Assembly (NCBI GenBank): GCA_021845905.1
Contig: JAJZVA010000006.1
Coordinates: 74,264 to 138,263 of the forward strand
Length of the DNA stretch: 64,000 nucleotides
Direction of reading: 5' to 3'
Origin: Pseudomonadota bacterium
GTDB lineage: Bacteria > Pseudomonadota > Alphaproteobacteria > Micavibrionales > UBA2020
In this document: piece after piece, positions 5,124-21,103 of the stretch
Position numbering within the stretch: position 1 is the stretch's first letter
Layout: each line of letters begins with the position of its first letter
Translations under genes and position numbers: made by a program
Notes under the pieces: model-generated
Seen by the model: the letters and a program-made list of their open reading frames with translations, nothing else
Told to the model about the DNA's origin: nothing
The model's database searches: none

Positions 5124-5711
5124 ATGGAAACAATGGCAAGCGTCAACGAACTCAAAAAATATCTTCACTCCGGCAGGGTCTACCGCCGCGCTGATTTGGC
5201 GCGGTGGTCGAAGTCGGTTGACCGCCATTTGCAAGCACTGGTCAGGGACGGCACAGTTAAAAAGCTTTCCGGCGGCATCTACTACTGCCCAGAAAAATCG
5301 CGCTTCGGCGATTTACCCCCGCACGATGCCGACCTTATCCGCGCTTTTTTGAAGGACGACCATTTTTACATGGCCTCTCTCAACGCCTATAATTCCTTAG
5401 GCGTTGGCGCAACTCAGCTTTACAATGAAACGCTGGTTTATAACAACAAGCGGGATGGACGTATGCGCTTGAACGGGCGTCCCTACTACTTCATAAAACG
5501 ACGCTTTCCCAAAAAAGGAAGTCGGGAATTTTTAATGGTTGACCTTGTGAACAACTTGCATCTGATGGCGGAGGACACGGAAGAAGTCCTCAAACATGCC
5601 GCAAGAAACGCGCTTGAAATGGACAGGGATAAACTGATGCACGCCGTTCATGAATACGGCGGCGCACGAGCAAGAAAATTCTATGAAGGCGTATTCAGCC
5701 ATGCCAGCTAA
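5124..5711 (+). CDS. AbiEi-family antitoxin-like protein
   Basis: Immediately upstream of and overlapping an AbiEii-type nucleotidyltransferase; N-terminal wHTH-like region; family assignment from memory. Confidence 0.65.
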   Translation: METMASVNELKKYLHSGRVYRRADLARWSKSVDRHLQALVRDGTVKKLSGGIYYCPEKSRFGDLPPHDADLIRAFLKDDHFYMASLNAYNSLGVGATQLYNETLVYNNKRDGRMRLNGRPYYFIKRRFPKKGSREFLMVDLVNNLHLMAEDTEEVLKHAARNALEMDRDKLMHAVHEYGGARARKFYEGVFSHAS

Positions 5712-6660
5712 AATATATCTTCACCAGCATCCGGAATTTTCCGACCTTATCCGCGTCGTCGCGGGCGAGAAGAATATAGACCCTTACCTTGCCGAAAAAG
5801 ACTATTGGCTCATGCACTGTCTTTACGGACTGAAAAAGGCCGGATACGATTTTCAGCTTAAAGGCGGTACGTCGTTATCCAAGGGATACGGCATTATCCA
5901 CCGCTTTTCCGAAGACATCGACATTCAAATCACTCCGCTGGAAAGCTTGAATGTCAGAACGTCCAGAAACCACGACAAGGACAAAGACCGCCAAGGCCGC
6001 AAGGATTATTACGATTATCTTGCGGCGCATATTCGCATCGACGGCATTGTGAAAGTCGTGCGGGATACTGATTTTGACTCCCTGCCAAAATACTATAGCG
6101 GTGGAATCCGCCTTCACTATGAAGCAAAATTTTCTTCGGACGGTAGTGTGAAGGAAGGTATTTTACTGGAAGTCGGTTTCGATGCCATGACGCCGAACCA
6201 ACCGCTTAACATCGGATCATGGGCTTTGCGGCGAGCATTGGAGGCAAAGCTGGATGTGACGGACAACACGGCCTTGCAAATTCCCTGCTACGACCCTGCC
6301 TATACGCTGGTCGAAAAATTGCAGGCCGTCGTCACCAAACACCGCAACCTGCAAGAAAAGGGCGGTGCGTTCCCAACCAATTTTATGCGGCATTATTACG
6401 ATATTTACTGCCTGTTGCAGAATGACCATGTGCAAAGCTTCATTGGTTCGCCGGAATACCTCGCGCACAAGAAACGCCGTTTTCCGGCGGCTGACCAGCA
6501 AGCGCCGTTAAGCGAAAACGAAGCATTCTTATTGCATGATGAAGGCAAGAAGGCGCTTTACAAGAAAGAGTATGAGCGTCGCGCTTCGCTCTACTATCAA
6601 GGCCAACCGCCGTTTGAGGAAGTATTGACGGTTATCCAAAAGAATTTAAGGCGATTGTAA
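5701..6660 (+). CDS. AbiEii/AbiGii-family nucleotidyltransferase toxin
   Basis: LKGGTSLSKGYGIIHRFSEDIDIQI nucleotidyltransferase motif; 11-nt overlap with upstream gene. Confidence 0.8.
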   Translation: MPAKIYLHQHPEFSDLIRVVAGEKNIDPYLAEKDYWLMHCLYGLKKAGYDFQLKGGTSLSKGYGIIHRFSEDIDIQITPLESLNVRTSRNHDKDKDRQGRKDYYDYLAAHIRIDGIVKVVRDTDFDSLPKYYSGGIRLHYEAKFSSDGSVKEGILLEVGFDAMTPNQPLNIGSWALRRALEAKLDVTDNTALQIPCYDPAYTLVEKLQAVVTKHRNLQEKGGAFPTNFMRHYYDIYCLLQNDHVQSFIGSPEYLAHKKRRFPAADQQAPLSENEAFLLHDEGKKALYKKEYERRASLYYQGQPPFEEVLTVIQKNLRRL

Positions 6661-7004: not shown

Positions 7005-8207
7005 CTACAAATCTTCATCTTCAAGAAGCGGTTTTTTGGCCTTTTTGCCCTTTTTCTTGCGCCGCGTATTGATGGCGGCGGCATCAAGGCTGGTTTTGAT
7101 GTGCGAGGCGTAGTAATTTTCAATCATTTCCACGCTCGTCCGGCAGTTTTTGGCGATTTGATAAATATCCGCCCCTTCCATGAGGCGTAGGCAGATATAG
7201 GTATGGCGCAGACTGTAGGCCGTGCGCCTGCTCCCTTCCCTGTCGAATTTGAAATCCAACTCATTCAGGATGCGGTTGAACATTTCCCGATGTCCTTTGG
7301 GGAAAAGCCTGTCGGTCGGCTTGGGCTTTGCGTTCATTCTCAGCCTGTCCCTCAGGCGTTTGAAAGGAATGACCGCGCCTGCGGTGCTTTTACAATAACC
7401 GACACCACGCTTGCCGCGTACTTCGATTTCAAGGATTGTCTCGCCCGAGTCCTCGTCCTCGACAATGGTTACGTCCCGAAACTCAAGCCGTGAGGCTTCA
7501 TCGGGACGCAGGCCAGTATTGGCCATGAACAGCACATAGTCGTGCAACTGTGCTGACTCCCAAACCCAGCGTTTGCGCTTGGGTTTTTCCGCGCGTTCGC
7601 GCGTCGCCTGATAAAGGGTTTTATATTCCTCTGGTGAAAACCATGCGCGATGCGAGAGTTTTCCAGTTGTTTTATACGGTTCTGAAAGGTCAGGCAGGTG
7701 TTTCAACCAATCATGGCGCAAGGCTGTTTTCAGCACTTGCCGCAAGGTGACGATTTCTTGGTGCATCGTATTCCGCGCAGGCGGCTTGCCGTTGCGCTCC
7801 ATGCCTGTTTTACGTCGATGGATGCGGTATTCCTGCAAGCGTCCTGCGGTGATTTGAGAAAGCCCCATATCTCCGAAGAAAGGCAACAGGTGGACGGCCA
7901 GACGTTGTTCGTGTCCCTTCACGTATACCTTGTTCCGGTTACCCTCGGTGATAATGGGATATTCTTTCAGGAATTGCTCGGCGGCCTCGTTGAAAGTCTT
8001 CTCCTCGACAAGCTCGCCGCGCTTGTGCTTGCCCCGCAGTTCCAGATACCAGTCCTCGGCAAAGTCCTTGGCTTTGCCAAGGCTCTCCTCATGGGTCGTA
8101 ATGCGGAAGTTTTTCTCATTAAGGAAAGCGGAACACTGCCAATAGCGGCTGTCGTCGCGCTTGTAAACGTGGATACGTCCGTCAAAAATCGTGTGGCTCT
8201 CGGTCAT
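7005..8207 (-). CDS. tyrosine recombinase/integrase
   Basis: FMANTGLRPDEA (Arg box), AYSLRHTYICLRL (HxxR), NCRTSVEMIENYY (Tyr); stop is 25 nt from the tRNA 5' end. Confidence 0.9.
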   Translation of the reverse strand: MTESHTIFDGRIHVYKRDDSRYWQCSAFLNEKNFRITTHEESLGKAKDFAEDWYLELRGKHKRGELVEEKTFNEAAEQFLKEYPIITEGNRNKVYVKGHEQRLAVHLLPFFGDMGLSQITAGRLQEYRIHRRKTGMERNGKPPARNTMHQEIVTLRQVLKTALRHDWLKHLPDLSEPYKTTGKLSHRAWFSPEEYKTLYQATRERAEKPKRKRWVWESAQLHDYVLFMANTGLRPDEASRLEFRDVTIVEDEDSGETILEIEVRGKRGVGYCKSTAGAVIPFKRLRDRLRMNAKPKPTDRLFPKGHREMFNRILNELDFKFDREGSRRTAYSLRHTYICLRLMEGADIYQIAKNCRTSVEMIENYYASHIKTSLDAAAINTRRKKKGKKAKKPLLEDEDL

Positions 8208-8234
8208 AGCACCTCCGGTAATAAAGTTTCAAAA

Positions 8235-8243
8235 CCGTGTAAG
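8235..8243 (+). repeat. arm-type repeat CCGTGTAAG (small element, integrase end)
   Basis: Same 9-mer and orientation as 3919 and 3931. Confidence 0.55.
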
Positions 8244-8340
8244 TACTGTGAAAGTGAAAATTCGTGGTTTATGTCATCTTCAATTATACTAACTAATTGA
8301 AAATAAAGTCTTAATTTCCGCTAAGACCTTATAATATCAC

Positions 8341-8402
8341 GATTTTAAGTCCTGTATATGATTTTATAAGCTATTGATTTTATTGACTATTATAGGATTT
8401 TA
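8341..8402. repeat. att core copy 2 followed by a GATTTTA ladder
   Basis: gattttaagtc at 8341-8351; GATTTTA recurs at 8341, 8360, 8376, 8396; 8392-8407 ataggattttaccgtg resembles junction ataggattttaagtcgtg at 51161. Confidence 0.6.
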
Positions 8403-8403
8403 C

Positions 8404-8430
8404 CGTGCTAATGTGTTAGCCAATGTGCTA
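8404..8430 (+). repeat. arm-type repeats (C/T)GTGCTA (large element, distal end)
   Basis: cgtgcta 8404-8410, tgtgtta 8412-8418, tgtgcta 8424-8430; matching tgtgcta at 51093 and 51104. Confidence 0.55.
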
Positions 8431-8740
8431 ATTGCTATGTTTCCGCTCTCCCAAGGAGCTTGCCCAACGGGTGAAAAAGCACCGGATGCGGCGTCCGCGA
8501 TGTGTAAGAGTAAGCTACTGTAATAGCTACATAATTCTAATAATCGGAGAGCGCCGTGTTAGCCCTGTGCTGATTTTTGCGCTAGCAATCCAAAAACTGC
8601 GGCTAGGTACCTATCGAATGGGGTTACTGACGCCGGTCCGCCTGGCCCATGGGGAGCATCATTCCGCTAGTCGCCACTTGCCCCACCCCCGCCGATCTTC
8701 TGCGCGGCACCGTTGACACGCTAAGGATATCTATTTTGCA

Positions 8741-8787
8741 TTTTGATGCACAAAACTAGGCAATATCCCTTGTTTTGATGCATAAAC
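8741..8787. promoter_or_regulatory. two operator-like palindromes sharing TTTTGATGCA
   Basis: TTTTGATGCACAAAA (8741-8755) and GTTTTGATGCATAAAC (8772-8787). Confidence 0.3.
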
Positions 8788-8794
8788 TGTTGCG

Positions 8795-8878
8795 GACGGC
8801 CAAGCCAAGCAGAACCTGCGCGTCAGCGTCACGCGAGGCAAGCGTCTTACAACCATTTTGAGGCCGTCGTCACGGTAG
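8795..8878 (+). pseudogene. orphan 3' fragment of a UvrD-like helicase gene (inverted duplicate of the gajB-like 3' end)
   Basis: 8800-8861 is a perfect reverse complement of 14137-14198; translates DGQAKQNLRVSVTRGKRLTTIL vs DDQAKQNLRVSVTRGKRLTTIL in ORF 14093..15910. Confidence 0.8.
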
Positions 8879-8893
8879 TTGAACACGCCTCCG

Positions 8894-10135
8894 TCACGCA
8901 ATCAGGGACGCGGCTGCCTCGGCTTGTTCGGTCAGGTAGTGACGGAGTTCGGCGAGCAATGCGCGTTCCGTGGGACTTACACCTGCGAGTAGATCGTCAG
9001 CCTCTTCGATCGCCTTAGGAAGGGTCAGCCAGGGCACGGTCCCGTCCCCAACCATGAGACGGCGGGCAATGGCGATCTCGTAATCACGGCGGGCGGCATG
9101 GGGCATGACATACGCCGCCTCGACGAATACGAGACGCTGGCCGAGCGCCCGCAGGCGCCCATCGCCGAGCCGGCCGATCAGCGGCGGGCGGTGGTGCCAT
9201 TCCAGATCGTGAAACCGGTCAAGCAGCGCCTGATCGTCATTGCCGGTGAAGCCGTCATAAATCTGCTCCTCGACATGGGGCGACGGCTCTTTTTCTTCGC
9301 GCGTCCGGCCAAAGGCGGCGATAAGGCGCGCGGCCAGATTATCATCGGACAGCGCGGCGAAATCGTCCGGGTCCTGCGAGAGGTCGAAGACCAGCATTTC
9401 AGAGCCGTTGTCCGGGTTCATGCCGATGCCGGTGACGAACCACGAGTATCCCTTGCCGTAGAAAAAATCTGTGAGCACGAAGACGTCCTCGTCGAGCGCG
9501 AAATCCGCGACCGCCGCCTTCTGGGCAAAGCGCACGAAATTCGACCAGTGCTCCGGCACGCGCTCGGCGATCAGGCGACACATATGGATGGTCGCCTCCA
9601 CATCGCCCATCGCATCGTGCGCGGCGCTGTGATCGAAGCCGTTGGCAGGCGCGAGCCGGTCGAGCTTGAAGACGGGCCTGCCGCGATCATCGAGCGGGAT
9701 GCTCAGGGTGTTTGGCGCGAACCGTGCGACTGCCTGAATCATCCGCAGGCTGTCGGTGCGGCAATTTCCGTTCGTATTGGTCAGGTAGGGTGCGTGCAGG
9801 GTCTTATACAGCGCCTGGCGCAACAGGTGCTCGTCAAAGCCGAGCGAGTTATGCCCGATGAATATCGCGGGCGACCATTCGGCCATCTTCGCCCTGATCG
9901 CGCGCACCATCCGGTAGTGGCTCGGCAGCGCGGGATCGGTAAGCCGGCCGATGCCGATTCCCGTGACGCGCACCGCGCCAGGCGACGGCACGACGTAAGG
10001 TAAAAGGCGGGAGCGGATTTCAAAGCGGTCCAGCTCGTTCAGGTCGTGATCCGTCCTGATTGCGCCGAACTGGAGTATCTGGTCGAAGGCGGTGTTGGTG
10101 CCGGTCGTCTCGGTATCATAAAACACGAAACTCAT
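8894..10135 (-). CDS. exodeoxyribonuclease I (SbcB)-like DEDDh exonuclease
   Basis: FYDTETTG, GHNSLGFDEHLL, HDAMGDVEAT DEDDh motifs; colinear with E. coli ExoI as recalled, somewhat shorter. Confidence 0.8.
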   Translation of the reverse strand: MSFVFYDTETTGTNTAFDQILQFGAIRTDHDLNELDRFEIRSRLLPYVVPSPGAVRVTGIGIGRLTDPALPSHYRMVRAIRAKMAEWSPAIFIGHNSLGFDEHLLRQALYKTLHAPYLTNTNGNCRTDSLRMIQAVARFAPNTLSIPLDDRGRPVFKLDRLAPANGFDHSAAHDAMGDVEATIHMCRLIAERVPEHWSNFVRFAQKAAVADFALDEDVFVLTDFFYGKGYSWFVTGIGMNPDNGSEMLVFDLSQDPDDFAALSDDNLAARLIAAFGRTREEKEPSPHVEEQIYDGFTGNDDQALLDRFHDLEWHHRPPLIGRLGDGRLRALGQRLVFVEAAYVMPHAARRDYEIAIARRLMVGDGTVPWLTLPKAIEEADDLLAGVSPTERALLAELRHYLTEQAEAAASLIA

Positions 10136-10158
10136 CGCTGGCCCTCCGCCGGCTGGAA

Positions 10159-10686
10159 TTAGGCAAACAGATTTCCGAGCCTGAAGCGCATCGCCGCCGT
10201 GCTGACCTTGTATTCCTTGGCGAGCGCGCTGACGGCGCCCTCGTCGTCAATGTCGAATGACTGCCCCTGCAATGAACGCGCAAGAAATTCTTCGGGCATC
10301 AGAAGTTCGGCGGCGAAGAAATTGGCCTCGATCTCCATTTCATCGATTCCGGCCGAAGACACCGAGTCGCGCATCAGCATCGGGAAGCCCTTATCGACGT
10401 GGATTTGCTTTGTGATCTCGGCGCGGTGAAGCACGAGATGCCCGACTTCGTGGGCGAGCGTAAATCTTTGTCGGTTGGGATGATGAAGGGCGTTGACGCC
10501 GATTATCGGCGTGCCGTCCTTGACATAGACCATGCCCGAGAGTTCGTCGTCGAGCGGGGAAAACCGCAACTGCGCCTCAAGCCCCTTGGCGATACGCTCG
10601 ACCGGAACCGGGGCCGCCATGATGCCCTGCTCGTCCCGTAATTCCTTTACGCGCTTCTGGATCGCGCTGCGCCGTTTCGTATTCAT
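10159..10686 (-). CDS. ImmA/IrrE-family zinc metallopeptidase (CapP-like)
   Basis: HEVGHLVLH motif; 4-nt overlap with upstream XRE gene. Confidence 0.8.
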   Translation of the reverse strand: MNTKRRSAIQKRVKELRDEQGIMAAPVPVERIAKGLEAQLRFSPLDDELSGMVYVKDGTPIIGVNALHHPNRQRFTLAHEVGHLVLHRAEITKQIHVDKGFPMLMRDSVSSAGIDEMEIEANFFAAELLMPEEFLARSLQGQSFDIDDEGAVSALAKEYKVSTAAMRFRLGNLFA

Positions 10687-11060
10687 GCGTTCTCCCTCCC
10701 GTTGTTGGCGCCCTGCTGCATGGCATCGCCCATCAGGCTCAGGACCTCGCGGCGCTGTTTTTCGGTCAGCCCGTCTTCGGCAAGCGGCAGCGGTGACGAG
10801 GCGCCTGCCTTCGGTGCGCGCGCCTGCGGCGCGAGCAGGAGCTGCGCCGGCGAATCGAGTTGCAGAGCCGACGCCAGCGCAAACAGGTGGTGGACAAGCA
10901 CCTGCTGCCGCCCCGCCTCAATATTGGCGAGCGAGGCGCGGGATATGCCGATCTGCTTTGCGAGCTGGTCCTGGGTCTGGCGCAGACTTTTGCGCAAGTC
11001 CCTGATTCGCGCTCCTAAACTTTGATAGATGTGGCCGGCTTCCATAGGTTTTTCTACCAT
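10683..11060 (-). CDS. XRE-family HTH regulator (CapH-like)
   Basis: LRQTQDQLAKQIGISRASLANIEAGRQ HTH; divergent from the Ubl operon. Confidence 0.8.
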   Translation of the reverse strand: MVEKPMEAGHIYQSLGARIRDLRKSLRQTQDQLAKQIGISRASLANIEAGRQQVLVHHLFALASALQLDSPAQLLLAPQARAPKAGASSPLPLAEDGLTEKQRREVLSLMGDAMQQGANNGRENA

Positions 11061-11092
11061 GCAAACGGAAGCGGCGTCAAGATCGCAAACAT

Positions 11093-11159
11093 AGACGTTT
11101 GCATTATAAACTTATTAAACGATTGCATTTTTGACATTTCCGGCGCGCTGTGGCATAAA
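11093..11159 (+). promoter_or_regulatory. promoter of the Ubl operon with adjacent direct-repeat operators
   Basis: TTGACA 11131-11136, 17-nt spacer, CATAAA 11154-11159; ACG(T/A)TTGCATT at 11095-11105 and 11119-11129. Confidence 0.5.
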
Positions 11160-11219
11160 GGAAGGGTCTGCGGGGCCGTCGGCGCCGCGCTTTCTGAAGT
11201 ACGGTGTAAGGAGATTCCG

Positions 11220-11519
11220 ATGGCGCACGAGCATCAACACGAGCATCAACACGAGCATGGACATGGTGGGCATGGCGGGGACGAAGTCACGCTTGAGGTT
11301 GGCACGCCCAAGGGGCTGTTCACTGGCACCTTCCCGAAAACAGCCAAGATTGAGGACGTGATCGCGGCGGCTGTCGAAGCCAAGGGCATCGACAGCGGCG
11401 AATCGCTAGAGCTTGTCTATAACGGCGATGTGCTGCAGCCGGTGCAGCGCACGCTCGTCAGTTTCGGCCTCGCCGGTACAGTGAAGCTCGAACTGGTTGC
11501 GACCGGCTCCGGGGTGTGA
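11220..11519 (+). CDS. bilA: ubiquitin-like beta-grasp protein with His-rich N-terminal tail
   Basis: AAGGAG RBS; MAHEHQHEHQHEHGHGGHGG then ~80-aa Ubl-sized domain ending LELVATGSGV; first gene of Ubl-E2-JAB-E1 operon. Confidence 0.7.
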   Translation: MAHEHQHEHQHEHGHGGHGGDEVTLEVGTPKGLFTGTFPKTAKIEDVIAAAVEAKGIDSGESLELVYNGDVLQPVQRTLVSFGLAGTVKLELVATGSGV

Positions 11520-11522
11520 GCG

Positions 11523-11966
11523 ATGGCCACCGCAGGCGAGCTGGTTTTCGAAGAGCAATTCGGTCACCTGCGGGAGAACGCGCAATCCCGCGGGTGGCCG
11601 CTGGAGCGGGCCTTCATCCTCGGCATGAAAGCCCGCGATGATTCGCAATACTGGCTGCTCGCCGATTGCAGCGACTACCCGGCCCTGCCGCCGGCATGGC
11701 ACTGGTACAACCCAGCGACGAGGCTGCTCGACCAGCCGGCCGATACGCCGAAGGGAGGGACGTTCTTTCACCCCTCCGGCCGAATTTGCGCGCCTTGGAA
11801 CCGTCTTGCCTATACCAAGGTCGATCCCAAGGGGCCTCATGGCGAGTGGGATCTCGCGAACTGGATCACGAATCCCAAGACCGGCAACTGCACCACGCTG
11901 TCGGCGATGGCGCTGCGAATTCATGTCGAGATGAAAAGCGCTCACTACCAGGGCCGGATGGGGTGA
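11523..11966 (+). CDS. bilB: E2-like (UBC-fold) conjugating enzyme
   Basis: FFHPSGRICAPWN resembles the HPN...C active-site loop of E2 enzymes; operon context. Confidence 0.7.
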   Translation: MATAGELVFEEQFGHLRENAQSRGWPLERAFILGMKARDDSQYWLLADCSDYPALPPAWHWYNPATRLLDQPADTPKGGTFFHPSGRICAPWNRLAYTKVDPKGPHGEWDLANWITNPKTGNCTTLSAMALRIHVEMKSAHYQGRMG

Positions 11967-11970
11967 GACG

Positions 11971-12492
11971 ATGCTGAATGCCCTCAAACGCCTGTTTGCA
12001 AAGAAGCCGCGCTACAAGCCGGGGCCGCCGCCCCCGCCGCGGCTCGTGATATCGCAAGGCTGCATCGATGCGCTTGCCGCGTGCCTTGCCCCGGAGATTC
12101 GCGACGGACAGGAAGGGATCGCCTACCTGCTCGGGCAAAGCGACGGTACGACCACGGTGGCGCTCGCCTCGATCCGCCCCGAGGCGCAGGTCACGCGCAG
12201 CAGCTTTGTCGTGAGCGCGTCGGCGATGGCGAAGGTCGTGCGCGCCGCCGTCGATCGCGGCCTGCAGGTGGTCGGACAGATTCACACCCATCCCGGCGAT
12301 GCCTATCACAGCGGCGGCGATGATGACGGCGCGCGGATTGCCTTCACCGGTTATGTATCGATCGTACTGCCCGATTACGGGCGTCACCTCCCCGCGCTGA
12401 CGCGCTCCGCCACCTATGTCTTTCAGGCGGGCAAGGGATTCGTGCCGCTCGGCGCCTCGAACATCGTTATCGTTCCGGGGAGGGTCGCGTGA
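11971..12492 (+). CDS. bilC: JAB/MPN+ metallopeptidase
   Basis: JAMM motif QIHTHPGDAYHSGGD with upstream Glu (EGIAYLLG). Confidence 0.8.
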   Translation: MLNALKRLFAKKPRYKPGPPPPPRLVISQGCIDALAACLAPEIRDGQEGIAYLLGQSDGTTTVALASIRPEAQVTRSSFVVSASAMAKVVRAAVDRGLQVVGQIHTHPGDAYHSGGDDDGARIAFTGYVSIVLPDYGRHLPALTRSATYVFQAGKGFVPLGASNIVIVPGRVA

Positions 12493-13820
12493 AGGATGAG
12501 GATTATTATGACGTGCGCGATGACCGGTTGTTTCGCTATCCCGACGCGCGGCGGCTTGACCAGTCGCGCTGGATTGCGATCCGCGCAGCTCCCGATTACC
12601 TGCGCAGCTATGCCGGCCAGGTCGCCCTGCTGACAGCGGCCAACCTGCTCGGCCGCATGGCGCGGCGGGTTGCGCTCGACATCCTGCCGACGGACATGGT
12701 CCAGCCCCTGCCCTGGGCGGGCGAAGACATCGTCGGCTTTGCTCTCGCGCAGATGCAGGCCGCCGATCCGCGCGGCGAATATCTGATCCGCCCCGCGCAT
12801 GATTCCGATCACATCGTGTTTCTTGGCGCGTCCGGCGCCCCGGTCGTGACGCATGGCGCCGGCTGGCTCGCCTATACCGGCCCTGCCCCGTCACCGCTTC
12901 CCGCCGACGACGCGGCGAACCCCATCGGCGCGGCGCTCGCGGTCATTGCCATGGCGGCGCAGCTTGCTGCACACGGTTTCGACGGGCCGCCGGCTGCGGT
13001 CATGCTCAACAGCTTTGACTGGACTCACGAGTTCGGCGCGCCATTGCCGGCGCTGCCCCTTGGCGCCGATCTCGGCGCGCTATGGGCGGTCGGCGCCGGT
13101 TCCGTCGGCACGGCGATCCTTTATTTCCTGACGCTGGCGACGCGCAATTTTTCCGCGCTGCTGTTCGATCGCGACAAGGTGAAACGCGAGAACATCACGC
13201 GCTCGCCGGTATTCGCCGATGAAGATATCAAAAGCGATAAGGCGCAAGTGCTGGAAGCCTATCTGAGACGCTGCGGGATAACGGACATGGCGCACGAGCC
13301 GGTGATGCTGCATGAATCGCGCAAATGGACCGACCGCGCGAGCGGAACGCCGGACCTCGTGATCGCGGCAGCCAACGAGCACAATGTCCGCCACCTGATA
13401 GAGTCCCTGTTGCCGCCGGTGCAGATTTACGGCACCACAGGCCGCAACTGGCAAGCTTCGGTCATCCGGCATGTGCCGATGGTCGATCCGTGCTCATGCT
13501 GCCTGTTCCCGGAAACCTCCTATACGCCGACCGGCTGCGCAACCGATCCCGAGGCAGCGCCTGCCGACGGTCAGCAGGTCGATGCCGCGCTGCCGCACCT
13601 TTCATTCGCCGCGGGCCTGATGGCCGCCGCGGAAATCCTCAAGCTGAGCCTGCCGGGCTACACAATGACGCCGAACCGCTCCCTGCTCTATACGAAGCCG
13701 GAGCTGCGGCTGGCGCGGGCCGGCGTGAAGCTGCGGCAGGGTTGCGTGTGCGGCGCGCGTAGCCGCGCCGTCCATGAGAAGATGATCGCGGGCAGCCGGT
13801 ACGCAGCGCTGTCGGGTTAG
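12489..13820 (+). CDS. bilD: E1-like ThiF/MoeB-family adenylating enzyme
   Basis: Rossmann GAGSVGTAILYFL...FDRDKV; Cys clusters DPCSCCLFPE and GCVCG; GTGA start/stop overlap with JAB gene. Confidence 0.75.
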   Translation: MKDEDYYDVRDDRLFRYPDARRLDQSRWIAIRAAPDYLRSYAGQVALLTAANLLGRMARRVALDILPTDMVQPLPWAGEDIVGFALAQMQAADPRGEYLIRPAHDSDHIVFLGASGAPVVTHGAGWLAYTGPAPSPLPADDAANPIGAALAVIAMAAQLAAHGFDGPPAAVMLNSFDWTHEFGAPLPALPLGADLGALWAVGAGSVGTAILYFLTLATRNFSALLFDRDKVKRENITRSPVFADEDIKSDKAQVLEAYLRRCGITDMAHEPVMLHESRKWTDRASGTPDLVIAAANEHNVRHLIESLLPPVQIYGTTGRNWQASVIRHVPMVDPCSCCLFPETSYTPTGCATDPEAAPADGQQVDAALPHLSFAAGLMAAAEILKLSLPGYTMTPNRSLLYTKPELRLARAGVKLRQGCVCGARSRAVHEKMIAGSRYAALSG

Positions 13821-14092: not shown

Positions 14093-15910
14093 TCAATTGT
14101 TTCCAGGAAGAAGGACGCAAGGGTCATTCTTCGGCGTCAAAATGGTTGTAAGACGCTTGCCTCGCGTGACGCTGACGCGCAGGTTCTGCTTGGCTTGGTC
14201 GTCTGCATGATCCCGTGAATTGAAGCGCACAATGCGGTCCGCGTTGTAGGGTGGCTGGCCCTTCCGTTTGATCGGCCAGCCCTCGAAAATAATAACTTCG
14301 TCGAATTGCTTACCTTTCGCTTTGTGCATGTTCATCACGATAACGCCGGACTCCGGCTTGACGTTTGTCGAAAAGTGCTCCCGGACGAAAGCCTGTCGCG
14401 TGATCGCCAGCGCATTGGAATAGCCGCCGTTGTCACGCCAATCCCGGGAAAGCTCCTGACGAAGTTGGGTCCCGCGCTCCAGGATACGGACGTTGCGAAC
14501 CTCATTCGCAATCTCATTCAATCTTTTGCAAGCTCCGTCCTGGAGGATGTGCCGCATGGCCAGCCAGTCGTTATCGGGGTCGCCCACAAGCACGAGCGCA
14601 CGTGTCTGGTCGTACACGGCGAGCATGCTGACGATGATGCTGTTCTTCCGCACGGCTTTGCCTGACGCATGACAAGTCAAAAGCTCTTCGTAGGCTTTTC
14701 GGATGCCCGCCGCCTCTTTCAGTGCTCCTTGCGTGGGTTCATCGCCGCCTTTGCCATGGAAGTAGTTGCACATGAGTTCGATGAACTGTTCAAAGTGATG
14801 GCGATCCACGGCAGGCTGCAACAGATGTGCGATAACTTCCGCCCCAAGGATTGCCGCCTCCATTTCGATGACCGCGGAATGCGGCACCTCAATCATCCCT
14901 GCCGGAGGTTGACGCAAGGCATCTGACACCAGGCGCGTCATCTTCTTTGTCGGGACGAGAATGGCCAGGGACCAGTCGGTGACGCCTTGGCTGACCAAGC
15001 GCCCGCGCGCGGCATAGGTCGTCGTAACTAGCTTTGTCATCGCTGGATCGGGAAAGGGGTCAAAGACATCGAACGCGATGCCCTTATACGTGTTCTGACG
15101 GAATTTCCCCGTAAGCAGGTCGTTGCCGAACATGCCGATCTCTGTCCCGGCGCTTCGGTGATTGTCTGTGCTCAGGTCTATCTCTGTTGGGGTGAACGTC
15201 TCTCGGAAATGGTGGAGACGCGCCGGGTCGGCACCAATCCAGTCATAAATGCGCTGTTCCGGGTCGGCGAGAGCAATCAGCCGGCAGAACGCGCCCAGCG
15301 CCTGAACGACCCGCCATTGCTGCGCATTCGTGTCCTGAAACTCGTCGAGGATGATGATCGGGTACATGGTCCCAATCAATCTGCGAATGCGATCGCTGCC
15401 GTGAAGGATTTCGCCGACATGGGGGGCATAGAGATCGAAGCACACAAGCCCCTCCGCGTTTGCGAGGCGGATGCGCTCTGTCTGCTCAGCGGCCTTCTTG
15501 GCCACCTTCTGCTCGTCGGAGAGGTTTCTGGCCGGGAAACCGGATCGCACCGCGGAGAGGGCGATCGCCTCGCCGGACGGCGTGAGGATACTGAGCCGCC
15601 GCGGCAGCCCGATGAGATAACCATGAGCCTTGAGGATACGCCAAAAGAAGGAATGGTAGGTCTCGACATCGATGAGCTGCTTCTGGGCACGCGGGATTTT
15701 CTGCTCATATTCGATAGCTTCTACCACACGCGAGACGGTGGCGCGTGCGAAGCTCAGAAACAGTATCTTCTGGCCGGGCCGAAGTTGATGCTCTGCCAAG
15801 TGGGCCGCCTTAAGAATGGAAACGGTTGTCTTTCCGGAACCCGGCCCTCCCGTGACAAGAAGGTGGCCATCGGCGTCCATCGCCTCAAGCTGCTTTTCAG
15901 TCAATTTCAT
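14093..15910 (-). CDS. gajB: UvrD/PcrA-like superfamily 1 helicase (GajB-like)
   Basis: LVTGGPGSGKTT Walker A, IILDEFQDT motif II; 14-nt overlap with upstream OLD-family gene. Confidence 0.8.
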   Translation of the reverse strand: MKLTEKQLEAMDADGHLLVTGGPGSGKTTVSILKAAHLAEHQLRPGQKILFLSFARATVSRVVEAIEYEQKIPRAQKQLIDVETYHSFFWRILKAHGYLIGLPRRLSILTPSGEAIALSAVRSGFPARNLSDEQKVAKKAAEQTERIRLANAEGLVCFDLYAPHVGEILHGSDRIRRLIGTMYPIIILDEFQDTNAQQWRVVQALGAFCRLIALADPEQRIYDWIGADPARLHHFRETFTPTEIDLSTDNHRSAGTEIGMFGNDLLTGKFRQNTYKGIAFDVFDPFPDPAMTKLVTTTYAARGRLVSQGVTDWSLAILVPTKKMTRLVSDALRQPPAGMIEVPHSAVIEMEAAILGAEVIAHLLQPAVDRHHFEQFIELMCNYFHGKGGDEPTQGALKEAAGIRKAYEELLTCHASGKAVRKNSIIVSMLAVYDQTRALVLVGDPDNDWLAMRHILQDGACKRLNEIANEVRNVRILERGTQLRQELSRDWRDNGGYSNALAITRQAFVREHFSTNVKPESGVIVMNMHKAKGKQFDEVIIFEGWPIKRKGQPPYNADRIVRFNSRDHADDQAKQNLRVSVTRGKRLTTILTPKNDPCVLLPGNN

Positions 15911-17768
15911 TTACACCGGCTCCCGGATCAGCGCCCGCAGCGACGGGTTCGACCGCCGCATTGATGGCGGCTGGGGCGGGTGTGCAGGCATCTTTCAACT
16001 GGACACACGCATTCCGAAGCCATTCGGGAATCTCGGACTCACTACATTGAGCCAGAAAGTCAGCGATAGCCCAATTTCCTTTGGCCCCTGCAAAATACTC
16101 CGAAAGCGCAACCGTGGCCTGCGCTCCAGGATCAGGGTACTTGGCCTTGAGGTGCGGAGGCCACGTGATGAGGTTCACGAACCGTTTTAGAGCCGCCTCG
16201 GTGGTGCCTTTCAGCACCATGGCCTCGAATCCTTTTTCCTCGTGCATCAACGACAACTCGACGTGGGCTTCAATCAGGGCCTTGTTCCCGTCCTCCTGCT
16301 TGTCGCAAATCGCAAAGGTGCGTTTTCCGAGGGCGCTATAAAACTGCGCCATGCCGGGGATGTTACTTTCGCTGCCGGCATCGACCGTGCAGATACCGAG
16401 TGCTTCAAGGGAGGAATAAACCTCCGGCTTTATCTCTGAAAGGCGACGGCATACCACCGGAAAGGCCGACGCCTCCGTAGCTCCTTCAGCAATGAGGATA
16501 CGGCGGGCGAGCAAACCTTCGCAGAAGCGGGTGCGGAATTCCTGCCGGTAGCGCTTGAGCTTCACGTTGTCGGGCAGCGCTATGATCTTGCGGGCGAGCA
16601 TCCCTTCTGTGTCACGCCCCAGAACGACGGTCTCCTCAAGGGCGAACTCCTCAAGCACGTATGGCGAATGCGACGTGAAGAGGGTTTGCGATGCCAGCTT
16701 CCGAACCTCGTGAACGATGCGCTTTTGGGCATAGGGCGGGATGGCCGTCTCCGGCTCTTCCATGGCAAAGATGACATTCTGCTTGTCTTCAGCGATTTGT
16801 GAGAGCATCGCCAGGACCAGCATGTTGATGGTGCCCGTCCCTTGTCGATAGAAGGGTGCGGCGTGATCGCCGTCTCCTGTGGCGATGAACGCCGTGATCA
16901 CCTTCCGCAAGTGCTCACGCGTTAAATTGGACACCTTAAGATGGGGCTTTACGCCCCATTCCTTTGGCACGTACTTCTTGAGCGCGACGCTGATGCTATC
17001 AAGTATCGGGGAAATACCAAGTTTCGGATCACTCGCAACCGAGATTCCAGACAGCGTTCCAAGTGTGTCCTCCCACATCTGCGGCCTGACTTCTTTGAGC
17101 CGCAGAATGATATCAAGCAGGCTGCCACGCTCTAAACTCAATGCGCGGGTGCCTGTCCGGAGGGAGCGGAGGTAAAGGAAGCCACATACCTGCTTGTGCC
17201 TCTTTGAGAACAGCTCTGGCGTGTCACCTTCCGTGAGACTGCGGGTAAAGAAGGTCCTGCCCTCGAAATCGTCCTCTTCCTCTTCGTACCAACCGTGGAA
17301 TGTGACGCGCAGCGCTTCGGTGATGGCGGCGCCGTCGACTCCCGCCGGGTTTGGTTCGTTGTAGAACTGGTCTGTCGCCGCGTCCCAAAACTCCGTGTAG
17401 TCGCCAAACTTTCCCTTCTGCTCGTCGGTAAGGTCCGCAACTGTCACCTCAATCTCGATTCTGGGAGCATCGGCCGCTACCTTGGTATCGTTGGCGGCGG
17501 GTTCGCCGTTATCATCAGCAGCGGGTTCAGCCGCTCCATCAGCCGGGGCCGCAACGGGCTTGACGGTATAATCACCTCTGAAAAAATCGTGCTCGTCGAT
17601 GGGTGGTTGGCGGTTGAGACGATCAGGCCCGAGCACCAGATCGAGTGCTTCGAGAATGGTCGTTTTGCCGGTGTTGTTATCGCCGATCAGTACCCCGTGC
17701 TTTGGTAACAACAGTGTTGTTGCCTTCACACCCCTGAAATTCTTGATGATGAGGCGACACGCTCTCAC
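15897..17768 (-). CDS. gajA: OLD-family ABC ATPase + TOPRIM nuclease (GajA-like)
   Basis: IIKNFRGVK...LIGDNNTGKTTILEAL N-terminus; C-terminal ILIAEGATEASAF TOPRIM-like; paired with UvrD helicase. Confidence 0.8.
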   Translation of the reverse strand: MRACRLIIKNFRGVKATTLLLPKHGVLIGDNNTGKTTILEALDLVLGPDRLNRQPPIDEHDFFRGDYTVKPVAAPADGAAEPAADDNGEPAANDTKVAADAPRIEIEVTVADLTDEQKGKFGDYTEFWDAATDQFYNEPNPAGVDGAAITEALRVTFHGWYEEEEDDFEGRTFFTRSLTEGDTPELFSKRHKQVCGFLYLRSLRTGTRALSLERGSLLDIILRLKEVRPQMWEDTLGTLSGISVASDPKLGISPILDSISVALKKYVPKEWGVKPHLKVSNLTREHLRKVITAFIATGDGDHAAPFYRQGTGTINMLVLAMLSQIAEDKQNVIFAMEEPETAIPPYAQKRIVHEVRKLASQTLFTSHSPYVLEEFALEETVVLGRDTEGMLARKIIALPDNVKLKRYRQEFRTRFCEGLLARRILIAEGATEASAFPVVCRRLSEIKPEVYSSLEALGICTVDAGSESNIPGMAQFYSALGKRTFAICDKQEDGNKALIEAHVELSLMHEEKGFEAMVLKGTTEAALKRFVNLITWPPHLKAKYPDPGAQATVALSEYFAGAKGNWAIADFLAQCSESEIPEWLRNACVQLKDACTPAPAAINAAVEPVAAGADPGAGVNEID

Positions 17769-20800: not shown

Positions 20801-21103
20801 CATCATTCCGTCGAAATGCGAGGTCGCGTTGCGGGCATCCAGTGCGAGGGAGACATAGCTGCGCGCCTTGCGCATCCGGGCGTCATGCCGGAACACCTCG
20901 CTATAGTTATCGAGGATTGTCTTGAGTAAGCCGTAGCCATCCAGCTCCGAACCGGTATCGCCGCCGGTCGCACGGCTTACATATTGACGCCAGTGATTGC
21001 CATGGCGCTGTTTCATGCGCTCGGCCACATAGGGAGACAGGCCGACGCGCAGCGCCTCAAGGGCCTGATCGACTTTCTGCTTCGCGCCGTATGCATCGCT
21101 CAT
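17807..21103 (-). CDS. HEPN-DUF499 ATPase
   Basis: N-terminal Rx4H (ARNATSH) HEPN-like motif; FGGGKTHTMLALYHL Walker A; 1098 aa; 4-nt overlap with upstream gene. Confidence 0.75.
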   Translation of the reverse strand: MSDAYGAKQKVDQALEALRVGLSPYVAERMKQRHGNHWRQYVSRATGGDTGSELDGYGLLKTILDNYSEVFRHDARMRKARSYVSLALDARNATSHFDGMMQDREALRYLDAIRELLDAIGAKEQVAIVDKLYEGQKRASPEAAAEATAGARQLDEPPPPAKLRPWREVAQPHPDVLEARFTDAEFAANLAHVDQGVGSEEYTDPLAFFRITYLTEGLSRVLRDAIERFAKKGGDPVVGLQTNFGGGKTHTMLALYHLAGAAQAGYKPEILHGMKSIFDAAGVSTLPTIQRAVFVGTHKGPSEVMHASDGREIRTPWGYIAYKLGGWDAVDHIADSEASRTNPGSEKLIQILELASPCLILLDEVVAFAKQLRGEENESFHAFIQSLTEAAAAVPGAMVVGSLPESGMEVGDERGVAALHRLEKLFGRVQSAWTPASGMETFEIVRRRLFQPLDEEGEKACDATIQAFSKLYRDNASDFPAEVKEPAYREEMKRAYPIHPELLKRFSEDWSTLEKFQRTRGILKIMANVIYALWRGQSTAPLINLGLIPLAEDKVRTAILEPLDRSYGPILQGEVDGELALPVKIEASRKRFGDVIAVTRAARAVFLATAPHRGSSRGGLTGPSLRLACAQPGDQISIFGDALRELSERSAYLYREGDRYWFSTQPTLNRIADERANDVAADDADAEIISILRKEQSHRGSFHRVHAAPDSLIDVEDARAIALLIVPPTYPHALKSPERTPAQRIVSDTLQRRGTGQRKFRNALVFVAPDESGLDTCREIARKYLAWKSIVEDREMRKGLTEAQIEDANARMRQSAEGLAQRIRSTWSHVLYPVPTQDGGNGTGPASGFELEHTSVVNRAPGKPIAQVVYDKLKANSVIVDELGPDTLMAELRKVWEESKPHIEVATLLDWFASYVYLPRLRDDATLTLAIEKLVAKIEAPVAFAQGFDEASGEYQRVSLWSAGLGSNIATGILVWRSALPEREATGKTEGAGTSARTGGPTATGVGDQSGKTATTTGKPRRFYGSIPLDPDKAGLQVAKIAEEILFELSRADGATVKLTLEIDASSPAGYPDDVVDVVRANVRDLKLDTGKVGFEEE

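What the first reader, a model, noticed from the sequence alone, without database searches (positions are those of the whole stretch)
8894..11159. XRE + ImmA/IrrE pair (CapH/CapP-like) co-operonic with an ExoI-like exonuclease, divergent from the Ubl operon
A 125-aa HTH protein and a 175-aa HEVGH metallopeptidase overlap by 4 nt and are transcribed divergently from the Ubl-E2-JAB-E1 operon. Repeated ACG(T/A)TTGCATT motifs abut the operon's TTGACA/CATAAA promoter. From memory, this matches the CapH/CapP repressor-protease pairs that switch on CBASS and other defence operons after DNA damage.

The unusual part is that a full ExoI-like DEDDh 3'-5' ssDNA exonuclease follows 23 nt downstream in the same orientation. 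A nuclease that destroys or creates the ssDNA signal could tune such a switch. Alternatively, the three genes could be a separate effector module.
Basis: partly seen in the sequence, partly recalled or inferred. Interest (0 to 1): 0.65.

Follow-up and report, generated by a model that had tools for sequence, protein, structure and literature searches.

The report
Repressor–protease–exonuclease switch beside ubiquitin-like defence
Three tightly packed genes (a repressor, a small protease that probably cuts it, and a DNA-end-chewing enzyme) form a cassette that recurs across many bacterial phyla next to ubiquitin-like anti-phage operons; the exonuclease appears to be an undescribed third part of a known DNA-damage switch.

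Summary
The XRE repressor (10683-11060) and the HEVGH M78 peptidase (10159-10686) overlap by 4 nt. An ExoI-family gene (8894-10135) follows after 23 nt. All three lie divergent from a Ubl-E2-JAB-E1 operon.

There are two corrections:
- The exonuclease is not full length. It carries an in-frame 55-residue deletion relative to all 468-aa relatives.
- The peptidase is a short form (175 aa, no cysteine). It lacks the GAF domain that forms half of the ssDNA-binding groove of canonical CapP.

The three-gene arrangement is not a local accident:
- About 45 of 80 exonuclease relatives, from many phyla, have the same capH-capP pair directly upstream.
- Exonuclease and peptidase phylogenies track each other (r = 0.85).
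- A CAAAC-N4-6-GTTTG inverted repeat is conserved upstream of capH.
- In 36 of 48 cassettes the divergent partner is a ubiquitin-like conjugation operon (Bil, Bub, Multi_ubiq-E1 or 6A-MBL).

CapH/CapP next to Bil and Bub operons is published. I found no paper that mentions the exonuclease.

My best reading is a DNA-damage-responsive switch whose own ExoI trims 3' ssDNA, setting the threshold and resetting the switch. This is inferred, not shown. I class it as a new variant of a known kind.

The parts
10683..11060 (-). capH-like XRE/HTH repressor, 125 aa. M6 is an alternative start that would give 120 aa.
   Evidence: Pfam HTH_31 1.5e-10 and HTH_3 3e-10. PADLOC capH 6.4e-13. One contig's gene call uses the 120-aa start.
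10159..10686 (-). Short, GAF-less M78 (ImmA/IrrE/CapP-type) zinc peptidase, 175 aa, HEVGH motif, no cysteine.
   Evidence: Pfam Peptidase_M78 2.2e-25. PADLOC capP 4.3e-34 over profile positions 3-150 of 242. Aligns to residues 84-174 of the 291-aa solved CapP 7T5T. H79, E80, H83 and E118 are invariant in the family. The best 150 library representatives are nearly all 160-195 aa, apart from a few shorter fragments and two of 220 and 237 aa; none is long enough to be a GAF-bearing form or a fusion to the exonuclease.
8894..10135 (-). ExoI/SbcB-family DEDDh 3'-5' exonuclease, 413-aa allele with an internal deletion.
   Evidence: Pfam RNase_T and Exonuc_X-T_C. PADLOC RTasSbcB 2.8e-107. PDB ExoI 4e-35. 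The full-length homologue model matches E. coli ExoI at TM 0.81.
9320..9337 (-). Junction of the in-frame 55-codon deletion (LAARL|IAAF). An 'ARL' occurs at both ends of the lost segment in relatives.
   Evidence: Alignment A1; coordinates. In the P0003 model the lost segment (about residues 272-326) holds strands 278-282 and 288-291, helices 297-300 and 306-318, and part of helix 320-333.
10136..10158 (-). 23-nt capP-exo spacer with a GGAGGG ribosome-binding site. No promoter-like or terminator-like site.
   Evidence: The gap in 33 orthologous cassettes has a median of 20 nt and ranges from -4 to 95.
11061..11219 (.). Shared divergent control region between capH and the Ubl gene.
11085..11102 (.). 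Predicted CapH operator: perfect inverted repeat GCAAAC-ATAGAC-GTTTGC.
   Evidence: CAAAC-N(0-14)-GTTTG, mostly N4 or N6, is present upstream of capH in 26 of 99 related loci, against 0.3 expected from shuffles. In many of them it lies near -55 from the start codon.
11116..11129 (+). Second copy of the 14-nt direct repeat (TAAACGATTGCATT). It abuts the TTGACA hexamer of the Ubl-operon promoter.
11059..11067 (.). Third operator-like half site (ATGCAAACG), overlapping the annotated capH start codon.
11131..11159 (+). Candidate promoter of the Ubl operon: TTGACA-N17-CATAAA.
   Evidence: Read directly from the sequence. Not called by the consensus scanner. TTGACAT-containing 8-mers are the most widespread in the capH upstream regions, each present in 31 of 99.
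11220..11519 (+). Ubl (BilA-like), 99 aa, His-rich N-terminus, C-terminus ...GSGV.
   Evidence: Weak Rad60-SLD hit.
11523..11966 (+). E2-like protein (BilB-like), 147 aa, HPSGRIC motif.
   Evidence: PADLOC BilB 1.7e-3. Sequence.
11971..12492 (+). JAB/JAMM peptidase (BilC-like).
   Evidence: Pfam Prok-JAB 5.8e-8. PADLOC BilC 1.2e-14.
12489..13820 (+). E1 adenylyltransferase (BilD-like), 443 aa.
   Evidence: Pfam ThiF 3.9e-12. PADLOC BilD 5.1e-14.

Best explanation
This is a conserved three-gene regulatory cassette, capH-capP(short)-exo. It is transcribed as one operon, divergently from a ubiquitin-like (Ubl-E2-JAB-E1) anti-phage operon.

Proposed mechanism:
1. The XRE repressor binds the conserved GCAAAC-N6-GTTTGC inverted repeat and the flanking CGTTTGCAT repeats in the 159-nt shared control region. 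It holds both divergent promoters down.
2. After DNA damage or phage infection, the small M78 peptidase cleaves the repressor. Both the Ubl operon and the cassette itself are then induced.
3. The ExoI-family enzyme is made from the same transcript and degrades 3'-ended single-stranded DNA. It keeps the basal ssDNA or RecA-filament signal below threshold. After induction it removes the signal, so that newly made repressor can shut the system off again. This is negative feedback and threshold setting.

What is shown: the gene identities, the tight operon structure, the conservation and co-inheritance of the trio, the conserved operator-like repeat, and the modular pairing with Ubl-type defence operons.

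What is inferred: repressor binding, cleavage, the nature of the signal, and the direction in which the exonuclease acts.

In this particular window the exonuclease allele has lost 55 residues of its SH3-like domain and linker, so it may be impaired.
For: Gene identities.

Operon structure:
- 4-nt overlap and 23-nt gap with an RBS, with no promoter or terminator call in the gap.
- The capP-exo gap has a median of 20 nt in 33 cassettes.

Conservation:
- About 45 of 80 genome loci found with the exonuclease carry capH-capP directly upstream on the same strand. They come from Alpha-, Beta- and Gammaproteobacteria, Entotheonella, Nitrospinaceae, Binataceae, Flavobacteriaceae, Verrucomicrobiota and Gemmatimonadota.
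- In a peptidase-anchored metagenome scan, 18 of about 22 close relatives (at least about 48% identity) with room downstream carry the exonuclease.
- The trio is also annotated on conjugative plasmids of Rhizobium anhuiense and Mesorhizobium sp. AR02.

Co-inheritance:
- Pairwise distances of Exo against CapP give r = 0.85 (Mantel 0 of 2000). CapH against Exo gives 0.91.
- Partner operon types are mixed within the exonuclease clades.

Operator: CAAAC-N-GTTTG occurs in 26 of 99 capH upstream regions against 0.3 expected. The same layout is seen in L007.

Partners: 36 of 48 cassettes face Ubl-type operons and 8 face other conflict systems.

Catalytic residues are conserved in the exonuclease and in the peptidase.

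Precedents:
- CapH/CapP derepress immune operons on ssDNA or DNA damage and are reported next to Bil and Bub operons.
- Host ExoI continuously removes ssDNA to keep the DRT4, DRT6 and DRT10 systems silent.
- PADLOC holds a defence-associated SbcB model that this protein matches at 2.8e-107.

Accessory character: sister clades of the short peptidase lack the exonuclease but keep the same Ubl partners. The deleted allele persists here on 8 contigs.
Against: - No experiment bears on any step.
- The short peptidase lacks the GAF domain and cysteine switch through which CapP senses ssDNA. ssDNA as the signal is therefore an extrapolation.
- An attenuator role and an activator or sensor role for the exonuclease predict the same genomics, so the two cannot be told apart here.
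- Promoter assignments are weak. The scanner called no sigma-70 site in the control region.
- Co-phylogeny could reflect simple physical linkage rather than functional coupling.
- The partner categories were defined from clusters found in the same loci, so the 75% figure depends on my own gene calling.
Confidence: 0.45

Rival explanations
1. The exonuclease is the sensor or co-activator of a 'split IrrE'. The peptidase has no GAF domain, so the ExoI-like protein binds 3' ssDNA ends, or generates a nucleotide or oligonucleotide product. Through a physical complex it then switches on the peptidase to cleave the repressor.
For: - Canonical CapP and IrrE bind ssDNA in the peptidase/GAF groove. The window peptidase ends where the GAF domain would begin, and the best 150 representatives of this peptidase family in the library include no GAF-bearing form.
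- Exo-CapP co-phylogeny is strong, r = 0.85.
- Coding regions are translationally coupled or overlapping in several loci.
Against: - Sister clades of the same GAF-less peptidase have no exonuclease yet face the same Ubl operons.
- No Exo-peptidase fusion appears among the 150 best peptidase representatives or the 120 best exonuclease homologues.
- The window allele carries a large deletion yet is maintained.
- GAF-less ImmA of ICEBs1 works without a dedicated nuclease (my own knowledge).
Confidence: 0.25
2. The exonuclease is a co-induced effector. Once the repressor is cleaved, the nuclease is over-produced. It attacks phage ssDNA replication or packaging intermediates alongside the Ubl system. 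Alternatively, the three genes form a small stand-alone defence module.
For: - The exonuclease sits inside the operon predicted to be autorepressed.
- Its catalytic residues are conserved.
- In other members of the short-peptidase clade the same downstream slot holds a dGTPase-like HD protein or a DprA-like protein.
- Four cassettes have no recognisable divergent partner.
Against: - The cassette is nearly always paired with a separate multi-gene defence operon that changes type while the trio stays constant. This is the behaviour of a regulator, not of an effector.
- An ssDNA-specific exonuclease alone is a weak barrier to dsDNA phages (inference).
Confidence: 0.17
3. It is an ImmR/ImmA-type switch of an integrative mobile element, like immR-immA-int of ICEBs1. 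On this reading it controls the downstream integrase and element excision rather than the Ubl operon.
For: - The peptidase is short like ImmA.
- A tyrosine integrase (7005-8207) lies downstream on the same strand.
- Exonuclease relatives without capH-capP often sit next to serine recombinases or an integrase.
Against: - The integrase is 686 nt away, has its own promoter-like sites and lies in lower-GC DNA, 0.49-0.52 against 0.61-0.64.
- An integrase downstream of the trio is not conserved in other loci.
- The conserved neighbour is the divergent Ubl or defence operon.
Confidence: 0.05
4. The adjacency is incidental. The exonuclease is independent cargo that happens to lie next to a regulator pair.
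For: About 35 of 80 exonuclease relatives occur without capH-capP, in varied contexts.
Against: - The same order, strand and roughly 20-nt spacing recur in dozens of loci from many phyla.
- Co-phylogeny is significant.
Confidence: 0.03

Closest known systems
CapH/CapP (Lau et al. 2022, bioRxiv 10.1101/2022.04.27.489752; Calloji et al. 2026, PMC13228613)
   Same: - An XRE-HTH repressor and an M78 zinc peptidase are encoded as an overlapping pair.
- The pair is divergent from an immune operon and shares its promoter region.
- Both proteins hit the PADLOC capH and capP models.
- This arrangement is published next to Type II Bil (15%) and Bub (31%) operons.
   Different: - The peptidase is 175 aa, against about 290 aa for CapP.
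- It has no central HTH and GAF part, no cysteine switch and no cysteine at all.
- A third co-operonic gene, the ExoI-family exonuclease, is mentioned in none of the papers I could search.
IrrE(PprI)/DdrO of Deinococcus
   Same: An M78 peptidase cleaves an XRE repressor after DNA damage. ssDNA is the activating ligand.
   Different: IrrE has a GAF domain and regulates chromosomal repair genes. No nuclease partner is encoded with it.
ImmR/ImmA of ICEBs1 and prophages
   Same: A short, GAF-less M78 peptidase sits next to its XRE repressor. The operon is divergent from the genes it controls.
   Different: ImmR/ImmA control excision and transfer, with int in the same operon. Here the conserved target is a defence operon, and the integrase linkage is not conserved.
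Host ExoI (SbcB) as threshold-setter for DRT4, DRT6 and DRT10 reverse-transcriptase defence (PMC12783706; bioRxiv 10.64898/2026.04.29.721553), and PADLOC 'RTasSbcB'
   Same: An ExoI-type 3'-5' ssDNA exonuclease keeps an ssDNA-triggered immune response silent until infection. The window protein matches the PADLOC defence-associated SbcB model at 2.8e-107.
   Different: In those systems the nuclease is the chromosomal housekeeping gene, or one linked to a reverse transcriptase. Here it is encoded inside a transcriptional-regulator cassette, and no reverse transcriptase was recognised among the genes annotated around it (4.2-21.1 kb).
E. coli exonuclease I (PDB 1FXX, 4JS4)
   Same: DEDDh active site. 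In full-length family members the same three-domain fold is predicted (TM 0.81).
   Different: - About 23-25% identity to E. coli ExoI.
- Scores below NCBIfam's ExoI equivalog cut-off (185 against 260 bits).
- The window allele lacks 55 residues of the SH3-like domain and linker.

Membership tests
CapH/CapP regulator pair | Adjacent XRE-HTH repressor and M78 (HExxH) peptidase genes | tested here: met
   Pfam and PADLOC hits. 4-nt overlap.
CapH/CapP regulator pair | Encoded upstream of, and divergent from, an immune operon, sharing its promoter region | tested here: met
   A 159-nt shared region faces the Ubl-E2-JAB-E1 operon. The same arrangement holds in 44 of 48 related cassettes, which face recognisable conflict operons.
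CapH/CapP regulator pair | CapP architecture of peptidase + central HTH + C-terminal GAF, with the ssDNA groove between peptidase and GAF | tested here: not met
   The 175-aa protein aligns to residues 84-174 of the 291-aa CapP 7T5T and then ends. The best 150 family representatives include no GAF-length form. The architecture is described.
CapH/CapP regulator pair | Cysteine-switch loop (present in many CapPs, not all) | tested here: not met
   The window protein has no cysteine, and none is conserved in the family.
CapH/CapP regulator pair | ssDNA-stimulated cleavage of the repressor and derepression after DNA damage | not testable with these tools
   Needs biochemistry or reporter assays.
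ImmR/ImmA mobile-element switch | Short GAF-less M78 peptidase with a cognate XRE repressor | tested here: met
ImmR/ImmA mobile-element switch | Same operon carries int and controls excision or transfer genes | tested here: not met
   The integrase is 686 nt downstream with its own promoter-like sites and a different GC content. The linkage is not conserved in other loci.
Exonuclease I (SbcB) family | DEDDh catalytic residues | tested here: met
   D7, E9, D101, H173 and D178 align to the E. coli ExoI catalytic residues. They are invariant or at least 90% conserved.
Exonuclease I (SbcB) family | Three-domain fold: exonuclease, SH3-like and C-terminal helical domains | tested here: inconclusive
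   Full-length homologue P0003 has pLDDT 89 and TM 0.81 to 4JS4/1FXX. The window allele lacks two SH3-like strands and the linker helices. Its own model was uninformative, with pLDDT 51 from a 9-sequence alignment.
Exonuclease I (SbcB) family | NCBIfam equivalog score for exodeoxyribonuclease I | tested here: not met
   185.5 bits against a cut-off of 260.
PADLOC RTasSbcB (defence-RT-associated SbcB) | Match to the model and adjacency to a defence reverse transcriptase | tested here: inconclusive
   The model matches at 2.8e-107. No reverse transcriptase was recognised among the genes annotated around the cassette: about 4.2-21.1 kb of the window in the precomputed Pfam calls, and 10 to 8 proteins scanned directly. 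ORFs outside 4.2-21.1 kb were not scanned.
BilABCD-type ubiquitin-like defence operon | Gene order Ubl-E2-JAB-E1, Ubl ending in Gly plus a short tail, E2 with a cysteine | tested here: met
   Gene order. The Ubl ends ...GSGV. The E2-like protein has HPSGRIC.
BilABCD-type ubiquitin-like defence operon | Assignment to Type I or Type II | tested here: inconclusive
   PADLOC Bil models hit only weakly: BilB 1.7e-3, BilC 1e-14, BilD 5e-14. Against E. aridi Type II BilB, E = 0.037 over 20 residues. No CEHH pattern is evident.

The most novel reading that the evidence does not exclude
The ExoI-like protein is the missing DNA-sensing half of a split IrrE/CapP. It recognises free 3' ssDNA ends, or phage proteins that block them, and through direct contact licenses the GAF-less peptidase to cleave the repressor. 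That would make an exonuclease the primary infection sensor for ubiquitin-like immune operons. It would also give a general answer to how GAF-less ImmA-type proteases perceive DNA damage.
Probability: 0.25. Interest if true: 0.75.

Novelty: new variant of a known kind. Interest (0 to 1): 0.6.

Why it matters
CapH/CapP-type switches decide when costly or suicidal immune operons are turned on. Their link to bacterial ubiquitin-like systems (Bil, Bub) is already noted. How the many GAF-less versions sense infection is unknown.

A nuclease that is co-inherited with the switch across phyla points to ssDNA 3' ends as the controlled signal. It gives a concrete, genetically tractable handle for testing that idea. 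The handle consists of the exonuclease gene, its catalytic residues and a naturally deleted allele.

The finding also extends the recent discovery that ExoI sets the activation threshold of reverse-transcriptase defence systems. Here some immune cassettes appear to carry their own ExoI. Hosts that lack a chromosomal sbcB may need this, but that point is inferred and was not tested.

Tried and rejected
- **RNA genes.** An Rfam scan of the whole window found no RNA family in or near the region, only a group I intron at 49.3 kb. No tRNA or tmRNA was found, so no att-type tRNA target is evident.
- **Promoters and terminators.** The consensus scan called no site in the control region or in the capP-exo gap.
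- **Structure of the window allele.** The AF2 model was poor (pLDDT 51). That reflects the 9-sequence alignment and says nothing about foldability.
- **Literature.** Searches for CapH/CapP with exonuclease, for Peptidase_M78 with XRE and exonuclease, for JAB/ThiF/ImmA with exonuclease, and for 'SbcB-like' found nothing relevant. The supplementary tables of the Bil and Bub preprints are not held.
- **SSB-binding pocket.** From memory, the E. coli ExoI SSB-tail pocket residues R148 and Y207 align to Ala and Asn here. I could not verify those residue assignments in the library, so I draw no conclusion about SSB binding.
- **Phage records.** The only matches were host sbcB flanks of Stx prophages. 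There is no phage-borne relative.
- **Type II Bil assignment.** Comparison with E. aridi BilB failed, so the Bil subtype is left open.
- **ImmR-ImmA-int analogy.** Rejected on spacing, GC content and lack of conservation.
- **Natural fusions.** No peptidase-exonuclease fusion was seen.
Full report
**1. What is in the window**

The minus strand carries three tightly packed ORFs (translations):
- 10683-11060, 125 aa
- 10159-10686, 175 aa
- 8894-10135, 413 aa

The first two overlap by 4 nt (ATGA). The third starts 23 nt after the second, behind a GGAGGG ribosome-binding site.

Identities of the three proteins:
- The 125-aa protein is an XRE helix-turn-helix protein by Pfam. It hits the PADLOC capH model at 6e-13.
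- The 175-aa protein is a Peptidase_M78 protein by Pfam, with an HEVGH motif. It hits the PADLOC capP model at 4e-34.
- The 413-aa protein has an RNase_T exonuclease domain plus the ExoI C-terminal domain. It hits a defence-associated SbcB model, RTasSbcB, at 2.8e-107. It aligns to solved E. coli exonuclease I at 4e-35, with all five DEDDh residues in place.

On the plus strand, 159 nt away, lies a Ubl-E2-JAB-E1 operon at 11220-13820.

The surroundings form a defence island:
- AbiEii toxin
- a tyrosine integrase
- Gabija GajA/GajB
- a HEPN_Swt1-DUF499 protein

The window matches a metagenome-assembled genome, GCA_027431735.1.

**2. Two corrections to the observation**

The exonuclease is not full length.
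- Of the 120 best homologues, almost all are 467-473 aa.
- The window protein has an in-frame gap of 55 residues between LAARL and IAAF. An 'ARL' lies at both borders in the relatives, which suggests deletion between short direct repeats.
- A full-length relative, P0003, models confidently (pLDDT 89). Over its whole length it superposes on E. coli ExoI (TM 0.81).
- The lost segment removes the last two strands of the SH3-like domain and the helices that lead into the C-terminal domain.
- The deleted allele occurs on eight contigs from several samples, so it is real.

The peptidase is not a canonical CapP.
- Solved CapP (7T5T) is 291 aa. The window protein aligns to residues 84-174 and then stops.
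- It therefore lacks the GAF domain. In CapP and IrrE that domain forms the ssDNA-binding groove together with the peptidase domain.
- It has no cysteine, so it has no cysteine switch.
- This holds for the family. The 150 best representatives in a 1.8-billion-protein library are nearly all 160-195 aa; the exceptions are a few shorter fragments and two of 220 and 237 aa, none long enough to carry a GAF domain.

**3. The trio is a conserved cassette**

Exonuclease-anchored survey.
- A scan of one genome per species returned 80 loci.
- In about 45 of them, capH and the short capP sit directly upstream on the same strand.
- The hosts include Alpha-, Beta- and Gammaproteobacteria, Candidatus Entotheonella, Nitrospinaceae, Binataceae, Flavobacteriaceae, Verrucomicrobiota and Gemmatimonadota.

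Peptidase-anchored survey.
- A metagenome scan with the peptidase returned 80 further loci.
- Among close relatives (at least about 48% identity) with room downstream, 18 of about 22 carry the exonuclease.
- More distant relatives never carry it. They still pair with capH.

Linkage and co-inheritance.
- The capP-exo gap has a median of 20 nt in 33 cassettes.
- Pairwise distances of exonuclease and peptidase correlate at r = 0.85 (Mantel 0 of 2000). Repressor against exonuclease gives 0.91.
- The trio is annotated as HTH / ImmA-IrrE metallo-endopeptidase / exonuclease-domain protein on conjugative plasmids of Rhizobium anhuiense and Mesorhizobium sp. AR02. In both it faces a ThiF-containing operon.

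**4. What the cassette faces**

I clustered and annotated the divergent neighbours. Of 48 cassettes with at least 2.5 kb upstream, 36 face ubiquitin-like conjugation operons:

| Partner operon | Cassettes |
|---|---|
| Multi_ubiq-E2-JAB-ThiF sets | 16 |
| E1 + DUF6527 (Bub) | 8 |
| Type I BilABCD (strong PADLOC hits) | 8 |
| Window-type Bil-like | 2 |
| E2-E1-JAB fusion with patatin and MBL proteins (6A-MBL) | 2 |

Eight more face other conflict systems: SLOG-patatin, TIR, SMODS-SLATT and a double AAA ATPase. Four have no partner I could recognise.

Partner types are interleaved within the exonuclease tree. The trio therefore behaves as a portable unit that has been combined with different operons.

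The exonuclease-free sister clades of the short peptidase face the same kinds of Ubl operons.

**5. The control region**

Repeats in the window:
- a 14-nt direct repeat, TAGACGTTTGCATT at 11092-11105 and TAAACGATTGCATT at 11116-11129
- an inverted arm at 11059-11067
- a perfect inverted repeat, GCAAAC-N6-GTTTGC, at 11085-11102

The second direct repeat abuts TTGACA (11131-11136). This hexamer lies 17 nt from CATAAA (11154-11159).

Across 99 capH upstream regions, CAAAC-N-GTTTG (mostly N4 or N6) occurs in 26, against 0.3 expected from shuffles. In many of them it lies close to -55 from the start codon. L007 has the same layout.

This conserved palindrome persists whatever the partner operon is. 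That is the best available evidence that the repressor acts at the shared region. The promoter hexamers themselves are weak, and the scanner did not call them.

**6. Mechanism**

By homology, the repressor and peptidase work like CapH/CapP, IrrE/DdrO and ImmR/ImmA. The peptidase cleaves the repressor after DNA damage and derepresses the divergent operon. This step is inferred.

The role of the exonuclease cannot be read from sequence. I favour an attenuator or threshold role (about 0.35 of the total) for four reasons:
- Its catalytic residues are conserved.
- It lies inside the operon predicted to be autorepressed. Its level would therefore rise with induction, which gives negative feedback.
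- Sister clades do without it, and this window tolerates a crippling deletion. It therefore looks accessory rather than essential.
- Host ExoI has just been shown to play exactly this role for DRT4, DRT6 and DRT10. There it removes ssDNA to prevent auto-activation.

The main rival is the sensor model, at about 0.25. Here the exonuclease replaces the missing GAF domain as the ssDNA sensor. The domain loss and the co-phylogeny support it. The exonuclease-free sister clades and the absence of fusions weaken it.

A co-induced effector role is possible, at about 0.17.

An ImmR-ImmA-int mobile-element switch is unlikely. The integrase is 686 nt away, has its own promoter-like sites and lies in lower-GC DNA. 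The linkage is also not conserved.

**7. Comparison with what is known**

CapH+CapP next to Type II Bil operons (25 of 162) and Bub operons (168 of 544) is published. Neither those papers, nor the original CapH/CapP paper, nor the 2026 mechanism paper mentions an exonuclease or a GAF-less form. Four targeted full-text searches found nothing. The library is incomplete, so earlier comparative-genomics papers may have noted it.

The window's Ubl operon is Bil-like in order and content. I could not assign it to Type I or Type II.

**8. Verdict**

- The CapH/CapP-like reading is right in kind. The peptidase, however, fails the architectural definition of CapP.
- The exonuclease is a genuine, conserved and apparently undescribed third member of a sub-family of these switches. 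That sub-family is strongly tied to ubiquitin-like defence operons.
- I class it as a new variant of a known kind, with interest 0.6.

Noticed in passing
window 49342-49533 (-): Rfam group I catalytic intron match (RF00028). It scores 54.2 bits against a gathering score of 50, E = 5.7e-11, over the full model length. The host gene was not examined.
   Followed up: no
window 14093-17768 (-): A complete Gabija system immediately downstream of the Ubl operon. GajB is at 14093-15910 (PADLOC 4.6e-235) and GajA at 15897-17768 (2.6e-262).
   Followed up: partly
window 17807-21103 (-), plus the next ORF from 21100: A 1098-aa protein with an N-terminal Swt1-like HEPN domain and DUF499. It overlaps the next gene by 4 nt. 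This is probably another defence system in the island.
   Followed up: partly
window 5124-6660 (+): An AbiEii-family nucleotidyltransferase toxin (5650-6660, Pfam 5.5e-33), preceded by an overlapping 195-aa ORF that could be its AbiEi partner. The region from 2 to 9 kb has lower GC (0.47-0.56) than the cassette (0.59-0.68).
   Followed up: partly
window 8208-8893: The 686-nt AT-richer spacer between the exonuclease and the integrase holds several short repeats. These include TTTTGATGCA(C/T)AAA twice (8741-8754 and 8773-8786) and TGATTTTAT..CTAT in tandem (8359-8390). They could be integrase arm sites or a promoter. The 94-aa ORF at 8432-8716 has no Pfam hit.
   Followed up: partly
window 11220-11285 (+): The Ubl protein begins with a histidine-rich tract, MAHEHQHEHQHEHGHGGHGG, ahead of the beta-grasp domain. 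Variable N-terminal extensions are reported for Bil and Bub Ubls, but I did not look for this one in relatives.
   Followed up: no
L090 929-2350; L128 6094-6801; L107 2640-5723: In exonuclease-free members of the short-peptidase clade, other genes occupy the slot after capP. These are a dGTPase-like HD protein 13 nt downstream (L090), a DprA-like protein (L128) and, judged by eye from its sequence with no family search run, what looks like a large methyltransferase (L107). This suggests a variable third-gene position.
   Followed up: partly
L033, L050-L055, L038, L058, L044, L049: A clade of the same exonuclease family lacks capH-capP. Instead it sits directly after large or small serine recombinases, a tyrosine integrase, or an HNH-helicase. 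The family as a whole therefore looks mobile-element-borne rather than housekeeping.
   Followed up: partly
L006, L025, L066, L072, L074: Several other exonuclease copies are shortened or split (431, 435, 436, 257 and 266 aa). These are either frameshifts in metagenome assemblies or repeated decay of this gene, as in the window.
   Followed up: no
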